Below are positions 29,736 to 43,049 of a stretch of 61,818 nt of DNA, piece by piece (the first letter of the stretch is position 1; every line of letters starts with the position of its first letter). Origin of the DNA: Stylophora pistillata (lineage: Eukaryota); contig NW_019217978.1 in the NCBI RefSeq assembly GCF_002571385.2, positions 356,481-418,298 of the forward strand, read 5' to 3'. Position numbers and translations under genes: made by a program. The notes under the pieces are model-generated. The model was given only the letters and a program-made list of their open reading frames with translations, was not told the origin of the DNA and did no database searches.

Positions 29736-32700
29736 CTAGACACGAGTAACTGGTTTTGACCGGTTGGCCTTGCTTCCTTTCCTTGTGTAAGCACGCAGTC
29801 TTTCTCTTGCAATTTCAAACTCCTCAAGTCTCTGTGTCAAATCAATCTTCTGATGAATGGCTTGTTTGAGGAGGTGATTAAGAGTTTTCTTCTCCTCCTC
29901 AGATGCAGCGTACTTTCGTTGTAGCTCATCAACTTGAATCAGGTATTCCTCACACCGAGTGGCATACATGCTGCGAAGTGAGGCGAATGTTGATACTTCA
30001 GCTTTCATTGCCTTCAGGTTTCTCTTCAACTGGCCTACTGTCTCTGACTGGACTGCTTTATCATTCTCGTAACGGCTTTTAAGATTTGCCAGTGCCACCT
30101 CATAGGTAGACTTGTTAGCCTTCAGAACTGTCCGCAGCGTAGTGATCTGTTCCCGCTTGGTTGTCAGTAGACTTTGGAGCTTTGCAATTTGCTGCTTTTG
30201 AACATCACTGTCCTCTCCACTACTAGCTTCGTCATCGCTGACAACTACCCGATACTCCAGTGCATGCTGTTTGGAAATTTCCACTGTCTTTTCCACAGCT
30301 TGTTTCAAAAACTTCACTTGATCACGCACAGAACTGATCAATCTGTAACAGGAATAAGGGTCTCCTCTTTCCATGGTCTCATTTGGATTCTCACTTCCCA
30401 TTGGTGACTGACGCACTTCCGCAGAACTTTCTTTTGTTGTCGAATCTGCCGTATTTCTTTCCATTTGCGATGCTGAATTTGATGCCTTTTCCTGCTTTTC
30501 TTTTCTGGTGAATGAATTGGCTGGGTGATCTCCATTTGCTGAGCAAACATGACTATAAAGCCGCTGCAGATCTTCACTGACGTATTTCAGTTCATCTTGG
30601 GTGCAGTTCAGACTTCCCTGAGCATTTCCAGCAAGATCACTCATAGACTTAACATCTTCTTGAAGGTTCTTAATCAATTCTTCAGATTCAATGCCTTTGT
30701 TCTTTAAATTTAACAACTCCTCTTCAAGCTCCTTGACTCTCTTTGTTAGGAACGTTGCCTCATCAGATTTTGTTTGCAAGCTAGCCCCTTTTGCTCTCAA
30801 GCCATCTACCTCGTTTTTCAATTCTTTGATCACAGCTTGGGACTTGTTATCTTTCATCTGGTAGCTCTTCAAGAGTTTTTTCACCTCTTCAAGTTCTTTC
30901 AATTGATTGTTTATCTTTGAATTAAAAGCTTCTCTCTCTTCAACTCCATCATCGCTGTCATCTAATGTTTCACACAGAACCTTTGCTTCAGTCAGAGTCT
31001 GGATGGCGTCAAATTCTTCCTTCAACTTCAAGACGTCCTTCTCTTTTTTAGCCAAGGCATTGGTGAGCTCAGTTTTCTCACTGCTCAGCTGTTCAAGCTT
31101 GTGGCTCATTTCTTTGACTTCTGACATCTGGAGTTCCCTCATGAGATCTTCCACCAACCCAGGGACAGGTTTGTACTCTTCGATGATGCTTTTTATTAAA
31201 GGATGTTCCACAACTTGTTCAGGTTTGTCAGTCTTCTCAGGACTTTCAATGCCAATAAACCGGCTTTCCTCATGCCAACTACTAACTGTGGGTGACTGCC
31301 GCTGGCGAATTTCTTGCAATTCTTTCTGCAGCAAGGAGTTTCTGTCACGTTGCTCCTTTAAAGATTCCAGTGACTCATTAAGCTGTTTCTCATACTGATC
31401 CCGTTTCTCACAGGCTACCTGAAGTTGGAGTTGTAACGACTCCATTTCATCCGTCAAACTCTTGTTTTCAACCTTCAAGGATTCAAACTCCACCATCGAT
31501 GATCTGAGAGTTGAGTATTGTTTCTGGAGATTGATGTTCTCCTCCTCAAGATCGCTAAATTCTTGACAATATTTAGATTCTCGGTACTTGAGTTCTCTGA
31601 TTTCATCCCTGAGAAGTTTCTTACTATGGGCAAATTGCTCAATTTCTTTGACATAATTGGAGGCCTGATTACAGAGTCTTTCATTTTCAATGAGTGCATC
31701 CCTTTCGGCTTTTCTCGCTTGGCGAACTTCACTCTCTAAATCTGTTATTTTATGGAGGTAATTAGCCTCTCTTGATTCACTCTCTTTTACTAGACTCTCC
31801 TCCCTATCATCCCCAAAGCGACTTCGTTTCTCTTGTTCAAGTTTCAACTGTTCATGGACCTTTGAGTAAAGATAAAGGAAAGCCAAAATATTAACCCTTT
31901 ACACCCTAACATCAGCATACATATTCTCCATACTGTTCTCTAATATACATTTCCTAAGGTGCTGACAAGGAGAATTTGTTTAACAATCAAGTGCTTCTTT
32001 GGTTGGTGATCATTTCCTTTATTCTCTTGACCTTAATGTGTGATTCAGGGGTGATATTGTAAGGAGAAATTAGATGTTAGTCACTCTAAGCAAGGCTGTG
32101 CTGAAAGAAAAATTGAATTGAGCGCAGTACCCTGAAACTGCGACATCCGGGGTGCCCAGCATATGATTTTTATGACAAAACTAAAATTCCTAAGTCACCC
32201 AAGAGCAAAATAATGTAAGGCACCAAGGGTCACTGGGCACTGCTAGACCACAGCCTTGCTTAAGGGTCAAAGGTCTAAAAAACAACAGATTTTCTGCAAT
32301 TTTAGTCCAGCTTAGTTCTGAGTTTGCTGAATAAGAAGCACTCTGAATGCATTTTTAAGTTAGACTCTATGTGGAATGAATATTTCAGTGATAATACTGA
32401 TGACCTGAACACAACTCTGCCTCTCATTTTTGAAAGTCAGACACCTTCTAATCATTATTTGTAAATAGACAATCTAACTTTGGTTTGGGACATTGATCAC
32501 TGCTATGTTTATTTCTCTTCTACTTTTTTTCTTATTCAGCAACAATTTTCAAAAAATTTTCAACAATTTCAAAACAAAAGAAAATGAAGGGAATAATATC
32601 AAAGAAAACAGTAGTTAATTCACTGTGTTGTAAATTAAAATATCAGGAGGCTGATATAGGTTCATTGCATGTAGCTATACATGGAAGCTATTTACAACAT

Positions 32701-37971: not shown

Positions 37972-39243
37972 AGTGATCGTATATTCATTCAGATTCCTCG
38001 CAAAGAGGAGAAAACCTTGGTGCGCTTAGTGAAAACGAATGAGAGCAGAGAGTGGACATTCGCAATCAAATTTATAGAACTTAAAGAGACTACATAATGC
38101 CATTTTTCTATTAATAACCTATAGTGCATGCTTGAAGCCATTGATATGTTTAAAATCCTGACATGACCAATAGTCACCCTTTAACTCCAAGATGTGATTA
38201 AGATTTATTTTCTCCCTAAATAATACTCAGTACATTATTCTCCAAACAGGTAATGAGAATACTCAAACTTATCAGGTACAAGTTATCTTAATCTAACTCC
38301 AAATTCTTATAACTAATTTAGAAGGAAAAGTTTAGTGGCTAGAGGGGATAATTTACAGTCAGATCTTGGAGTTGAGGGTTAAAAGAGAATCTAACAGCTA
38401 TTTTCTGTATTAACTTAAAAAAAAAAAAAAATACAAGTAGCCAGTCATTTTTTTAAGGAGATGCACTTGTCTGTTTAGAGGTGTAGGCTGGGTTTGTAAC
38501 AAGAATGGACAGTGAGATCCATATTAATGAGTCAGAGAAGTGTTAAAGAATTTATCTTGCAAATATTGAAAAAAAGAGTACAGTTTATAAACCCCTCAGG
38601 AAAGAGTTGAATACTCTTTGTGCTCTAAAGTGATTGCAGCTTATGATTGTTTTGCTTTTCATTTGTTGTTGTCAATAACTTAACCAAGACCATGCCTGTC
38701 AGATGGAAGCTTGATTACTTTGATAAAATGTATATCATATTTTCTCAAATGTGTGCTGGTGAAAGTTGTAGTCCTGCAGAGACTTGCATGATTGGAAAGC
38801 ACTCTTTTCAAAGATGGTGAAAATATAAAATGATGAAGGTTTGTTTTGTACCATTGTAACATGTTGCAGTCCCTTGATTTTTGTATGTTTCCTTTTTCAT
38901 AGACAATTTCAACTCAGTAGTTTCAAATGTGACACAGTAAGGTCTTACTAAATTATTAGTTAGATGAACTCTGATGATTACATGGATCACTTGTCTACAA
39001 AAACAGAACTCCAGTGAAGTCAATACAAAAAGAGGCATCTTTGTGCTGTTCAACTGAAAAAATTGACAAACCCCTACTGGTACATTTTACCAAAGAAAGC
39101 TATTCCAAACATTGTGGGGGACGTGGGGGGAGGGGGAGGGGTGTGGAAATTCAAAGGTTGTAAGACTAGTACATATTTTACGCACCCTATGCCTTGTATC
39201 CCAATCAAAAGTAAAGTTTATCTTTGTCTTACCCTCATGCTTA

Positions 39244-42119
39244 TTAAGAAGATAAGGCTGTAGGTCCTATCCTCCTTGAAAGAAAAGCCAGGCAACATGG
39301 GGTTCTCTCCATTCTGTCCTGCAGCTCAGCTAAATTTGTTTGAATCATTTGGACATAAACATGCTCAGGTCCGAACTTCTTCAAACAAATGTCCACTGCA
39401 TGGGCATAATAGTCTGCTGCTAGCTCAAAGTTACCTTCTGCTTCATGTGCATTACCCAAGTTATTGTAAGTGGATGCCACATCGACATGCTCAGGCCCAA
39501 GCTTTTTCACATATATATATTGAGTGCAGTTTCATAGTAGTATCTTGCCTTCTTTATTTTACCCGGATGCTTGTACACAAGACCCAGTTCATTGTACGTA
39601 GATGCAACATCAACATGCTGAACTCCAAGCTGTTTGATACGTAAAACCAGTGAATGCATTATACAGAATTTTGCCCGCTTCAAGTCACCAAGGTCACGAT
39701 GTAGAACACCTAGGTTGTGATAAGAAGTTGCAATGTCATCATGATCAGGGCTAAGAATTTTTGTTTGAATGTCCATTGCACGCAGGTAAAAGTCTTTAGC
39801 CTGCTGCAGGTCACCAAGCCTATTGCACACAAGACCAAGGTTATTGTAAGAAGAGGCAACATGAACTTGGTCTAATCTAAAATTTCTCAGATGGATGTCC
39901 AATGCTTGTAAAAAGTAATCCTTTGCCTGCTCTAGTTTTCCCAGGTCACAGTGCACCCTACCTAAGCCACTGTAAGCTGCTGCCTTTGCTTTATTGCAAC
40001 CTACCACACCCAAGTTGACAAAGGTTAACACCACATTACAGCACTTTAGTGCTGTCTTTAGTTCACAGTGTTCAATACACATCTCTCCGAGTGTTAGAAA
40101 GTTTTCAGTAAAGTCTTGCACTGTAACTATGCCACTTTTGGTAACTTCTGAGATTCCTTGCTCAGAAAACAATGGATCTGTTTCAGTGATCAAATTTTTT
40201 ATATGGGGGACTATGTTCTTGCAGAGGAATATCGGATCTAAGTCTTGCCCAATCTTGGATGCATCAGTTTCTTTGTAAATGGCTTGTGAAAATGATGCAA
40301 TGGCCCCATGGATGACTTTAAGGTGTTCATCATTGGTATGGCATTTTACTACAGTATTGATGACTTCATGGACAACTCTATGGACTCGAATGTAGACACA
40401 GCCCTCGTCTTCTGTAAATAACAACAGTGGGCATCGGCTGAGTTTTGCCACAACCATTTCTCTATCCTGAAATTCTTCATCTGTTTCTGTAATGTAGCGG
40501 GTGACAATGTCTTGAAGTATCGGTTGCGATGCACACAGGGAGAGCAAAGAGAATGTGTGATGAATAACTTTGTCACATGTCATTGCCTTCTCTACAGCAA
40601 GTGTTATTGCAGCTGTCATGGATTTTGGGTAACTTGAGTTGGTTTCAGCAAGAATCCTCTCTGTACTTCTCCGTTTCCCTTTATCCAATTTCTTCAAGTA
40701 GTCAATCCAACCAAAAGCTGCCTTGTTTTGTCCAACTTCTCTGACATATGTGGCAGCACTTGCCATGGCAAGAGGTTGGTAGTCTAATACCTGTGCAACT
40801 TCTTTTTCCATCTCACTATCTGTGACACCAGAAAGCTGTTTCAACAAAAATCTGGCATCTTCAAGATCCATACCTTTGCTGATTGAGACATGTTGTATGC
40901 AAGAGCTTGTTAATGGGATGGACATAGTATCTTGTGTTGTAATGAGCATCTGGCCTCTTGCCCATTGCTTGTTCCCTGCATCTGGTAAATGACTATGTAT
41001 GCCAAATGCATCAGCAACATTATCAACCACCAGCAGCCAGGATGCAAAAAGCTCAATTTTGGTGCTTATTAAGGCCTTGAGATTAGTAATTTTCTCATTT
41101 GTGTCCATCTCTCTGGATTTGAGGGTGTTTGTAACAGCATACTCAGGACATTTACAATACCGTGCAAAAGAGACATACGACTCCATAAGAGCTCCCGTGT
41201 TTTCCGCGTTTAGTGCCATAACGAATGAAGTACTGAGAGTCGAGTCTTCAACTTCATCATAGAATTGCTTGGCTACCAAACGGGACAACTGAGATTTCCC
41301 ACTTCCTGGATTTCCTGATAGATACAGGATGCTTAAACAGTTTTCATTAGCCCCTTTGAGTGCTTTGAGCTGCTGTGTTATTTCAGCAACCTGACGAGTA
41401 CAGGGTGCAACATCGTGGGAAGGTGCAGAAGGAAGAATGCAAAATGGAGAGACTTCAGTTTGTAACTGTTCCTCCAAAACCTGTCGTTGTCCTTCCTTTT
41501 CTTGAAGTTCCATTTCCTTTTCTCGGAGTTTCATCTCTTTTTCTTGGAGTTTGTTTTCTTTCTCATAAACTTCTTGTTTAAGGTCATCTACCTTCCTCAG
41601 AACCTCTCCTAACTCCTCTGTTGGAAAGCTTGTCTGATTTTGGATTTCTTTGATTTTTGCAGTGGCAAGACCAAGATTGTGAAATGCATTGTAGACTTTG
41701 AGAATATCATTCTTAAATTTAATGTTAGAAAGATGGCCATGTGGTACATGTGCAAATTCTTCATTTCAAAATTTCCTGAGGTCATCCACATTTGATTGCA
41801 CTGTTGGATTGAGACTATTCAGGCAATCTGAATACAGAATGGCATAAAAGAGCATGGAACAATCCCATTCAGCTCTATTGCCATTCTTCATGGTTGTCAA
41901 CAGATGGGCATTTTTCTTTCTGTTTCGATGGGATTCACCCTTCCAGAAGTCCAGTCCATTTTTCGGTTCATCTTTCCATTCTCCTAGCGTTGTTTTGTAG
42001 CGTTTGTCCCATTCCTGTTTGAAGATTGTTCGTAGACCGTCCGTGAGTATATTCGTGACAACATAGGATATCCTGGAGTAGTTCAGTTGCTCTGCAGTGT
42101 ATTGCAATGCAGTGGCCAT
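39244..42119 (-). pseudogene. Disrupted paralog of the HEPN-STAND-TPR gene
   Basis: Colinear with 55429-58260. Codon 118 CGA>TGA (41766-41768). A 2-nt insertion beside an (AT)5 run near 39509 creates a stop before the last TPR. The frame is otherwise open (675-aa ORF, 39507-41534). Confidence 0.85.
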
Positions 42120-42496
42120 GTGACATGTACTTTGGTGAAATTAGGGAACCTATTCAAGAAAGGTTCAAACAAAATGTTTTCTACAGGGTAATTGTACAAG
42201 CGGAGTTTTTAAGCTTGACAGTTGGGGTCAATTAGAAACCTTTTCCACTATGCAGATGTTTTATGGAGATCGTGCTTGGTCAGCAGGCAGTGCAAAATCG
42301 AGTATTATTCCCTGCAAGAGAATTACTCAGTGATTACCAGTTGAAACTAGAAGATCGGTACGTCAACTGATTTTTTTATTCTTCAATTTCTTTCCAAGTA
42401 TTTCAAAATGCTTCTGCACTACTTTTAGGAGAGTAATTTATATTCAGAGTTTGTCATAGTAGTTTTGTAAGCACAGATATTAAGCTTGCAAAACAA

Positions 42497-43049
42497 TAGC
42501 CTGTGTATAGCCGCCCCATCCCCTCAAAAAAATCGGGAATGGGGCGTCTGTGATTTACCGCTGCTAATCGTGTATGGAACCTCGTGATTTTTCCCGGAAT
42601 GTGCGGAAAATGATCTCATTGGCTGTTACTCGTAGATCAGTACATCATGTGAACCACGGGTTTCGATTGGCTATCAATTTCGCGGGGAATCGACTTCTGA
42701 GATGTGAAGCCTTCTCTCAAAGTACACATTGCTCTCACAATAACAAGTGTGCGAATTAGCGATGAGTTTGTGTGTTCTTTGTGAGAAAAACATCGTTCAG
42801 AATTCTGATAAAAATCTCGTTGACGGACGGTAGAGCTCGAGTTTTAACGTCCAGGAGGAGTTGCTGTCGCTGGAGTATAAAGTGTCTATAGATACCGCTT
42901 ACATTTGCAGAAATTGCCTGTCGACTTTAAAGAAACGAAGGGCTGTTCTGACGAATCTTTGTGTTGTGAACTCTACGATTCGAGAGATTATCAGCTCGAA
43001 ATTTTCTTCCCAATTTCTTAGAGGGGATGGGGCGGCTGTACACAGGCTA
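42497..43049 (+). mobile_element. Internally deleted DNA transposon (TAG...CTA, 9-bp TSD) with a C2C2 zinc-finger remnant; possibly AcademH-like
   Basis: TIR TAGCCTGTGTATAGCCGCCCCATCCCCTC / GAGGGGATGGGGCGGCTGTACACAGGCTA; perfect TSD GCAAAACAA (42488-42496, 43050-43058); internal MSLCVLC...YICRNC peptide with a stop. Superfamily is inferred. Confidence 0.8.

What the first reader, a model, noticed from the sequence alone, without database searches (positions are those of the whole stretch)
39244..42119. Paralog knocked out exactly at the HEPN catalytic arginine, leaving a 675-aa effector-less STAND-TPR frame
Seen: intact copy TTT CGA AAT GAA GAA TTT GCA CAT vs this copy TTT TGA AAT GAA GAA TTT GCA CAT (41766-41768). 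The only other lesion I found is a 2-nt insertion near 39509 that removes the last TPR. An in-frame ATG at 41534 opens coiled coil + NTPase + four TPRs with Walker motifs intact. Inference: either a young pseudogene whose toxic effector was disabled, or a HEPN-less sensor/decoy partner of the neighbouring intact gene (as in paired plant NLRs). Caveat: CGA>TGA is a common CpG-deamination event, so the coincidence may be neutral.
Basis: partly seen in the sequence, partly recalled or inferred. Interest (0 to 1): 0.7.

Follow-up and report, generated by a model that had tools for sequence, protein, structure and literature searches.

The report
Segregating null allele, coral HEPN-STAND-TPR gene
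The stop codon is real, but other corals of this kind carry the same immune-receptor-like gene whole and spliced, so this is most likely an ordinary broken allele, not a purpose-built decoy partner.

Summary
Both lesions are in the window as described, but neither is fixed. Public runs read Arg (CGA) at the stop site in 4 of 4 covering samples other than S1; TGA appears only in sample S1, beside CGA. The 2-nt insertion is present in 4 of 8 runs and absent in 4; S1 shows both forms. One RNA contig covers the whole reading frame without either lesion, 953- and 957-aa full-length alleles are on record, and spliced contigs join a 5' UTR exon. The gene is an old paralog under purifying selection, HEPN part included (dS 0.30, dN/dS 0.30-0.33). 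No enrichment at this codon: 0 of 53 other copies carry TGA, 0 of 42 family stops fall there. The site is one of 7 CGA codons in a CpG-depleted gene. Seven out-of-frame ATGs lie between the stop and ATG 41534. Verdict: a rare CpG nonsense allele, probably on a common frameshift haplotype, of a known kind of coral HEPN-NTPase-TPR gene. The sensor/decoy reading is not supported. Side lead: 41 of 120 homologs end in a CaaX-like box.

The parts
44399..44508 (-). 5' UTR exon 1 (upper end approximate, from a 109-letter loose end); GT donor at 44398-44397
   Evidence: Loose ends of X12, X19 and X2 match window 44400-44420 exactly; the paralog's exon-1 copy differs at the junction
42150..44398 (-). 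5' UTR intron, GT...AG, 2249 nt; an alternative AG acceptor at 42313-42312 is used in X2
39244..42119 (-). Single coding exon of the HEPN-coiled coil-NTPase-TPR gene; 957 aa in full-length alleles, broken twice in this window
   Evidence: natural full-length alleles P0137 (957 aa) and P0004 (953 aa, 97% identical); RNA contig of X13 spans 39150-42238
41625..42119 (-). HEPN-like domain, residues 1 to about 165, motif R118-N-x4-H124
   Evidence: R, N, H invariant in 34 aligned rows; Pfam HEPN_Swt1 E 0.011 and HEPN_DZIP3 E 0.066 for the paralog, family copy L063 passes the HEPN_Swt1 cut-off; ESM Atlas 0.95 to HEPN_DZIP3 clusters for homolog P0094
41766..41768 (-). Premature TGA at codon 118 (polymorphic; CGA in other samples)
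39507..41534 (-). 675-aa open frame left downstream of the stop; no evidence that it is translated
   Evidence: exact protein on record from one contig only; seven out-of-frame ATGs between the stop and 41534
41292..41315 (-). Walker A, GNPGSGKS
   Evidence: Pfam AAA_16 and NPHP3_N below cut-off
41016..41036 (-). Walker B, LLVVDNV
39510..40007 (-). Four 42-residue TPRs before the frameshift
   Evidence: Pfam TPR_12 E 1.5e-32, TPR_10
39509..39511 (-). 2-nt insertion in an (AT)n run; frameshift, stop at 39509-39507 (polymorphic)
   Evidence: present in X1, X2, X8, X16, absent in X4, X12, X13, X19
39244..39507 (-). Fifth TPR, capping helix and Cys-Cys tail, out of frame in this haplotype
55429..58260 (-). 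Intact tandem paralog, 943 aa, CGA at 57909-57907
46326..46505 (-). Duplicated last exon of the neighbouring MTMR14-like gene; part of the tandem duplication unit

Best explanation
The window holds a broken allele of an old, spliced coral HEPN-NTPase-TPR gene that is whole in other samples, and the stop is likely a chance CpG change that makes this copy a null. Shown: TGA and CGA both occur at codon 118, frameshifted and open forms both occur at 39510, spliced RNA contigs exist, and the family has many broken copies with lesions spread along the gene. Inferred: the intact protein works like an NLR-type receptor (TPRs sense, NTPase oligomerises, HEPN domains pair and cut RNA); the gene body is methylated, so CGA is a hotspot; the AT-run slip came first and is common, and the stop arose later, probably on that haplotype; the TGA allele yields only a 117-aa piece lacking the Rx5H motif, and the 675-aa frame is a leftover.
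For: Site 41768 was covered in 6 of 8 runs laid: G (CGA) in all 6, window letter (TGA) only in X4; leaving out S1 as a possible source, 4 of 4 samples from 4 studies show CGA only (X8 weak, 4 letters from a contig end). Insertion present in 4 of 8 runs, absent in 4 of 8; S1 shows both. X13 RNA contig of 3974 nt covers the frame with CGA and no insertion. P0137 and P0004 are full-length alleles with R118. Spliced junctions in three runs of three studies. dN/dS against the paralog: HEPN 0.30 (0.17-0.49), NTPase region 0.33 (0.23-0.49), codons 1-868 0.33. CpG observed/expected 0.30 in the coding part against 0.69 in the window. Family: 24 of 58 other loci carry a stop or frameshift in the aligned part; 0 of 53 copies covering the codon have TGA, 11 have CGA; 0 of 42 stops at 118; 2 of 9 single-lesion copies are hit in codons 1-165, 2.5 expected. 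0 of 114 short homologs end cleanly at F117.
Against: All runs are contigs: they drop rare alleles, so TGA frequency is unknown and its support in X4 is depth 3.5. Phase of stop and frameshift (2.26 kb apart) is not shown; contigs of one sample are mosaics, and the window may be too. Only 8 of 24 listed runs were laid. 10 of 114 short homologs end or lose frame within residues 117-122, a bump that I ascribe to contig breaks at k-mers shared by paralogs (such a break is seen at 41742-41771) but did not test. The a priori chance that a random stop lands on this codon is small (0.25-3.8%). dN/dS between old paralogs says little about the last few generations; the tail after the frameshift gives 1.36 on 5 synonymous differences. 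No proteomic or ribosome data.
Confidence: 0.85

Rival explanations
1. Second-site suppressor: the common frameshift allele keeps HEPN and NTPase but loses the last TPR and cap, would be leaky or hyperactive, and the stop was favoured because it silences it.
For: The frameshift form is in 4 samples of 4 studies and is spliced in X2 with CGA. Complete open-frame records (X13, P0004, P0137) share His143 with CGA, while the window pairs Tyr143 with TGA, which weakly places TGA on the frameshift background. Precedent: a widespread C-terminally truncated plant NLR allele causes autoimmunity (PMC7826191, abstract only).
Against: A common allele is unlikely to be strongly harmful; the stop was seen in one sample only; any stop before the NTPase would do, so the position adds nothing; phase is not shown (X19 and X8 do not fit the linkage).
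Confidence: 0.06
2. HEPN-less sensor or decoy: ribosomes would restart at 41534 and make a 675-aa NTPase-TPR protein that partners the intact neighbour, as in paired plant NLRs.
For: The frame is open with both Walker motifs; the locus is transcribed; the only intron seen is in the 5' UTR, so no exon junction lies downstream of the stop; an intact paralog lies 13 kb away.
Against: The allele is rare, not fixed. Seven out-of-frame ATGs lie between stop and 41534, the first starting 2 nt below the stop; restart after a 117-codon frame is poor in eukaryotes (recalled). ATG 41534 sits in a 21-nt repeat unit the paralog lacks. No joint or loose end that skips the HEPN part in the runs laid. HEPN is as constrained as the NTPase. 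Genes are head-to-tail with separate exon-1 copies; paired plant NLRs are typically head-to-head (recalled). The 675-aa product is on record from one contig only.
Confidence: 0.04
3. Assembly or contig artefact: the TGA is a consensus error, or the window joins lesions from two haplotypes.
For: Five of six covering runs show only CGA; X1 and X4 of one sample give different mixes of alleles, so mosaics occur.
Against: X4 splits at exactly 41768 and carries the window letter on part of its depth; the insertion is bridged in four runs. A mosaic would change only the phase (then S1 would carry one lesion on each haplotype), not the verdict.
Confidence: 0.05

Closest known systems
Coral NACHT/NB-ARC-type proteins with N-terminal DZIP3-like HEPN and C-terminal TPRs (PMC10236652, passages; PMC8260672, passages)
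   Same: HEPN-like N-terminus, P-loop NTPase, TPRs; large family (66 matches in this genome; 1174 proteins); tandem duplicates. PMC10236652 reports many N-terminal DZIP3-like HEPN domains and that NB-ARC proteins mostly carry TPRs.
   Different: This clade scores below Pfam cut-offs for HEPN_DZIP3, and had no NB-ARC or NACHT hit at E 0.01, so domain-based surveys would miss or misname it (NCBI names homologs Nephrocystin-3 or uncharacterized). The passages read do not discuss segregating null alleles.
HEPN superfamily, DZIP3/hRUL138 and Swt1-like families (PMC3710099, passages)
   Same: Rx4-6H motif with polar residue after R (here R-N-x4-H); fusions to STAND NTPase and TPR are listed there; R and H are needed for activity in RNase L KEN and PrrC according to that paper.
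   Different: No RNase activity shown for any member here; fold searches were inconclusive.
Plant NLR alleles with premature stops, e.g. Arabidopsis DM10 (PMC7826191, abstract)
   Same: Intact and truncated alleles segregate at one immune-receptor locus; one truncation removes C-terminal repeats.
   Different: DM10 is a TIR-NLR with a shown autoimmune phenotype; here no phenotype is known and the second lesion removes nearly the whole protein.
Paired sensor/executor plant NLRs (RRS1/RPS4, RGA4/RGA5, Pik-1/Pik-2; recalled)
   Same: Two related receptor genes side by side.
   Different: Here head-to-tail, no integrated domain, the supposed sensor form is a rare allele and both genes keep the effector motif in other samples.
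Haplotype-variable NACHT and DZIP3-HEPN arrays in pearl oyster (PMC9646362, passages)
   Same: HEPN immune genes differ between the haplotypes of one animal.
   Different: There copy number and order vary over megabases; here point lesions at one syntenic locus.

Membership tests
HEPN superfamily | Rx4-6H motif, polar residue after R | tested here: met
   RNxxxxH in 118 of 120 homologs, R in 119 of 120; R118, N119, H124 invariant in 34 rows. In the window allele the R codon is TGA.
HEPN superfamily | Profile match to a HEPN family | tested here: inconclusive
   Paralog: HEPN_Swt1 E 0.011, HEPN_DZIP3 E 0.066, both under cut-off; 1 of 3 distant family copies tested passes HEPN_Swt1 (28 against 27.5 bits); precomputed PF18738 on 3 and PF18731 on 1 of 114 short homologs; Atlas 0.95, 204 of 256 features, for homolog P0094.
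HEPN superfamily | All-helical HEPN fold with motif at the end of helix 3 | tested here: inconclusive
   Model all-helical, motif at the end of helix 105-122, mean pLDDT 69.5; Foldseek no match at E 0.001; VIA-align best Z 7.8 to generic bundles, Cas13 Z 5.8 and Csm6 Z 5.6 among them.
HEPN superfamily | Metal-independent RNase activity | not testable with these tools
   Needs an assay.
STAND / NLR-like receptor | Effector - P-loop NTPase - repeat architecture with Walker A and B | tested here: met
STAND / NLR-like receptor | Pfam NB-ARC or NACHT match | tested here: inconclusive
   Neither listed at E 0.01; only AAA_16 and NPHP3_N below cut-off. STAND class is inferred from architecture.
STAND / NLR-like receptor | Ligand-triggered oligomerisation | not testable with these tools
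   Not tested.
Paired sensor/executor NLRs | Sensor form fixed or common, effector lost or decayed | tested here: not met
   CGA in 4 of 4 other covering samples; HEPN dN/dS 0.30.
Paired sensor/executor NLRs | Head-to-head pair (typical, recalled) | tested here: not met
   Both on the minus strand, head-to-tail, separate exon-1 copies.
Paired sensor/executor NLRs | Sensor protein is made and binds the partner | not testable with these tools
   No ribosome or protein data; no complex was predicted.
Fixed pseudogene | Lesion fixed in the species, dN/dS near 1 | tested here: not met
   Open alleles exist; dN/dS 0.33.

The most novel reading that the evidence does not exclude
This coral HEPN-NTPase-TPR locus keeps full-length, TPR-truncated and null alleles side by side, as plant resistance genes do: the common 870-aa frameshift allele is a functionally distinct (leaky or retuned) RNase receptor, the codon-118 stop is a suppressor on that background, and the ortholog in a related coral shows the same pattern with other lesions (5 truncated among 14 listed non-MTMR members). 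That would be cost-driven balanced polymorphism at an animal HEPN immune receptor.
Probability: 0.1. Interest if true: 0.6.

Novelty: new member of a known kind. Interest (0 to 1): 0.2.

Why it matters
As read here it is ordinary birth-and-death turnover, and a caution: a single collapsed assembly makes a live, polymorphic immune-type gene look like a designed HEPN-less partner, and databases hold its 675-aa leftover as a protein. It has some use as a natural allelic series (957 aa, 870 aa, null) for testing what coral HEPN-NTPase-TPR proteins do, since none has a shown function in the papers I saw. If the alleles were kept by balancing selection it would tie these genes to immune cost in corals.

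Tried and rejected
Fold searches with the 177-aa model found nothing clear; no conclusion drawn. Metagenome scan gave 7 distant loci (31-70% identity), none an allele or ortholog, not used. X16 and X19 do not cover 41768 and were left out of that count. Depth was not used as expression. Looked for enrichment of lesions at the Arg codon or in the HEPN part: none; L073 was dropped from the broken count because its stop lies beside an N gap; C2494 and C1596 (gene runs off the contig; codons CGG and CGC) and C202 were not fetched full length. The short-homolog test is weak because only cluster representatives are shown and fragments can hide inside larger clusters. The 716-aa ORF at 29736-31886 is Bicaudal-D, not a third copy. 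Loose ends at 39263 belong to the paralog's 3' end. The 607- and 650-aa cluster members are MTMR14-like proteins, not truncated alleles. Earlier scan notes: nothing found by sequence or words. Paper searches listed nothing on this locus, on null alleles of coral HEPN receptors, or on CaaX ends in them; the library lacks most subscription papers and no supplements were read (those of PMC10236652 list domain compositions and may include this clade).

Full report
Setting. The window lies on contig C195 of a 398-Mb eukaryotic genome. Runs holding the stretch include libraries labelled coral metagenome, named homologs are from stony corals, and proteins of the neighbouring gene carry the source name Stylophora pistillata. 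Two related genes lie head-to-tail on the minus strand: the target (ATG 42119) and an intact 943-aa paralog (ATG 58260).

Observation. The target has TGA at 41768-41766 where the paralog has CGA, at the Arg of RNEEFAH. The only other frame-breaking difference is a 2-nt insertion in an AT run near 39510. The 675-aa frame, both Walker motifs and four TPRs are as stated.

Is it HEPN? Probably. R, N and H of an R-N-x4-H motif are invariant in 34 aligned rows and present in 118 of 120 homologs; PMC3710099 (passages) gives Rx4-6H with a polar residue after R as the HEPN signature. Pfam scores for the paralog are under cut-off (HEPN_Swt1 E 0.011, HEPN_DZIP3 E 0.066), one distant copy passes, and the Atlas places a homolog's N-terminus at 0.95 with HEPN_DZIP3 clusters. 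A model of pLDDT 69.5 was all-helical but fold searches were inconclusive. Catalytic role of R118 is therefore inferred.

Both lesions are polymorphic. I laid 8 of 24 listed runs, all as contigs. Position 41768 was covered in 6. All 6 show CGA; only X4 also shows the window letter (4.44 of 7.94 depth is CGA, and long contigs stop at 41767 and restart at 41769). X1 and X4 share sample S1, which may be the assembly's source and is left out: the other four samples, from four studies, show CGA only (X8 weakly). The insertion is bridged in all 8 runs: present in X1, X2, X8, X16, absent in X4, X12, X13, X19, so S1 has both forms. One RNA contig (X13, 3974 nt) covers 39150-42238 with CGA and no insertion. 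Two full-length proteins, P0137 (957 aa) and P0004 (953 aa, 841 of 866 identical to the target), share a cluster with the 675-aa product, which is on record from one contig only.

The locus is transcribed. Loose ends at 42150 (X12, X19) and 42312 (X2) match window 44400-44420 exactly, next to a GT donor, and both landing sites follow AG. The paralog's exon-1 copy differs at that junction. No intron or joint was seen in the coding part. X2 carries the frameshift with CGA, so the 870-aa form appears in spliced RNA. No RNA contig laid carries TGA.

It is an old, constrained gene. Against the paralog dS is 0.30 and dN/dS is 0.33 (0.26-0.42) over codons 1-868, 0.30 in the HEPN part, 0.33 in the NTPase region and 0.59 in the TPRs; the 80-codon tail gives 1.36 on 5 synonymous differences. 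In a tree of 19 rows the target and its alleles group (100/98) with intact proteins P0002, P0003 and relatives, and the paralog falls outside (midpoint root). The only named member of the P0003 cluster is a Pocillopora MTMR14-like protein, and MTMR14 is the neighbour here too, with its last exon and the exon-1 region duplicated along with the gene. I infer that the duplication predates the split from that genus and that the target is the conserved ortholog.

No targeting of the Arg codon. Of 58 other family loci fetched, 24 carry a stop or frameshift in the aligned first 600 codons. The Arg column is covered in 53 copies: 11 CGA, 0 TGA, 5 non-Arg (4 otherwise broken, 1 fragment). None of 42 aligned stops is at 118. 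Among 9 single-lesion near-full copies, 2 are hit in codons 1-165 against 2.5 expected; one of them (L056) also leaves a long frame, 1325 aa, so the 'effector-less frame' is the usual result of an early stop. Of 114 short homologs none ends cleanly at F117, though 10 end or lose frame at 117-122, which I ascribe, untested, to contig breaks at sequence shared among paralogs. The gene has 7 CGA codons counting 118 and CpG observed/expected of 0.30 against 0.69 for the window, which fits a methylated gene body (inference). The hit is 1 in 7 among CpG stops and 0.25-3.8% among all single-base stops: a modest coincidence picked out after the fact.

Re-initiation. After the 117-codon frame, seven out-of-frame ATGs come before 41534, and that ATG lies in a 21-nt repeat unit the paralog lacks. 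Restart after so long a frame is poor in eukaryotes (recalled). Nothing here shows the 675-aa protein is made.

Mechanism. Inferred for the intact gene: an NLR-like receptor in which TPR sensing drives NTPase oligomerisation and pairs the HEPN domains into an RNase. Inferred history of this allele: slippage in the AT run removed the last TPR and cap and became common; a CpG change then put a stop at codon 118, probably on that background, because complete open-frame records share His143 with CGA while the window pairs Tyr143 with TGA. Phase is not shown. The TGA allele would give a 117-aa piece without the motif.

Known context. Coral proteins with DZIP3-like HEPN at the N-terminus and TPRs after an NB-ARC-type domain are described (PMC10236652 and PMC8260672, passages); HEPN immune genes vary between haplotypes in pearl oyster (PMC9646362, passages); truncated NLR alleles segregate in Arabidopsis (PMC7826191, abstract). 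Four searches listed nothing on this locus.

Verdict. Real lesion, ordinary cause: a rare null allele of a live gene of a known kind. Interest 0.2. The boldest reading left open is a maintained allelic series with the stop as suppressor (probability 0.1). The better lead may be outside the finding: a C-terminal CaaX-like box in 41 of 120 homologs.

Noticed in passing
Homologs P0001-P0120; own-genome loci L044, L047, L056, L067: 41 of 120 homologs have Cys at position -4 (0-7 at other positions -1 to -12; background Cys 1.8%), ending mostly in Leu (23) or Phe (13): a CaaX-like, geranylgeranyl-type box (name recalled), suggesting membrane-anchored HEPN-NTPase-TPR receptors. Target and paralog end in a Cys-Cys motif instead, which the frameshift removes. 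One paper search listed nothing on it.
   Followed up: partly
Protein cluster of P0003 (340 members): The putative ortholog in a related coral also has truncated members: four listed 662-aa proteins that start just after Walker A and one 743-aa protein with a shifted TPR end, on contigs of 7-18 kb. Their lesions seem to differ from codon 118; DNA could not be fetched.
   Followed up: partly
window 45180-46584, 44249-44945, 58614-58962, 60591-61284; L087: The tandem duplication carried the last MTMR14-like exon and the exon-1 region; a third, more diverged exon-1-like copy lies near 58740-58960. A database model fuses MTMR14 to the paralog (P0143, 1547 aa), probably a misannotation.
   Followed up: partly
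window 42126: An out-of-frame ATG 7 nt upstream of the main start opens a 52-codon overlapping frame; could damp translation.
   Followed up: no
window 41513-41545: A 7-residue repeat in the coiled coil varies in copy number between paralogs and between 932- and 939-aa members of the related cluster.
   Followed up: no
window 29736-31886 (-): Bicaudal-D coded by one long 716-aa open frame, possibly intron-poor.
   Followed up: no
L052, L055, L044: Family copies with open frames but altered motif spacer or lost His (RNKYLSS in L052), possible inactive members.
   Followed up: no
window 40499: Three different letters at one site across the window and runs (Arg, Gly, Ser; Cys in the paralog).
   Followed up: no
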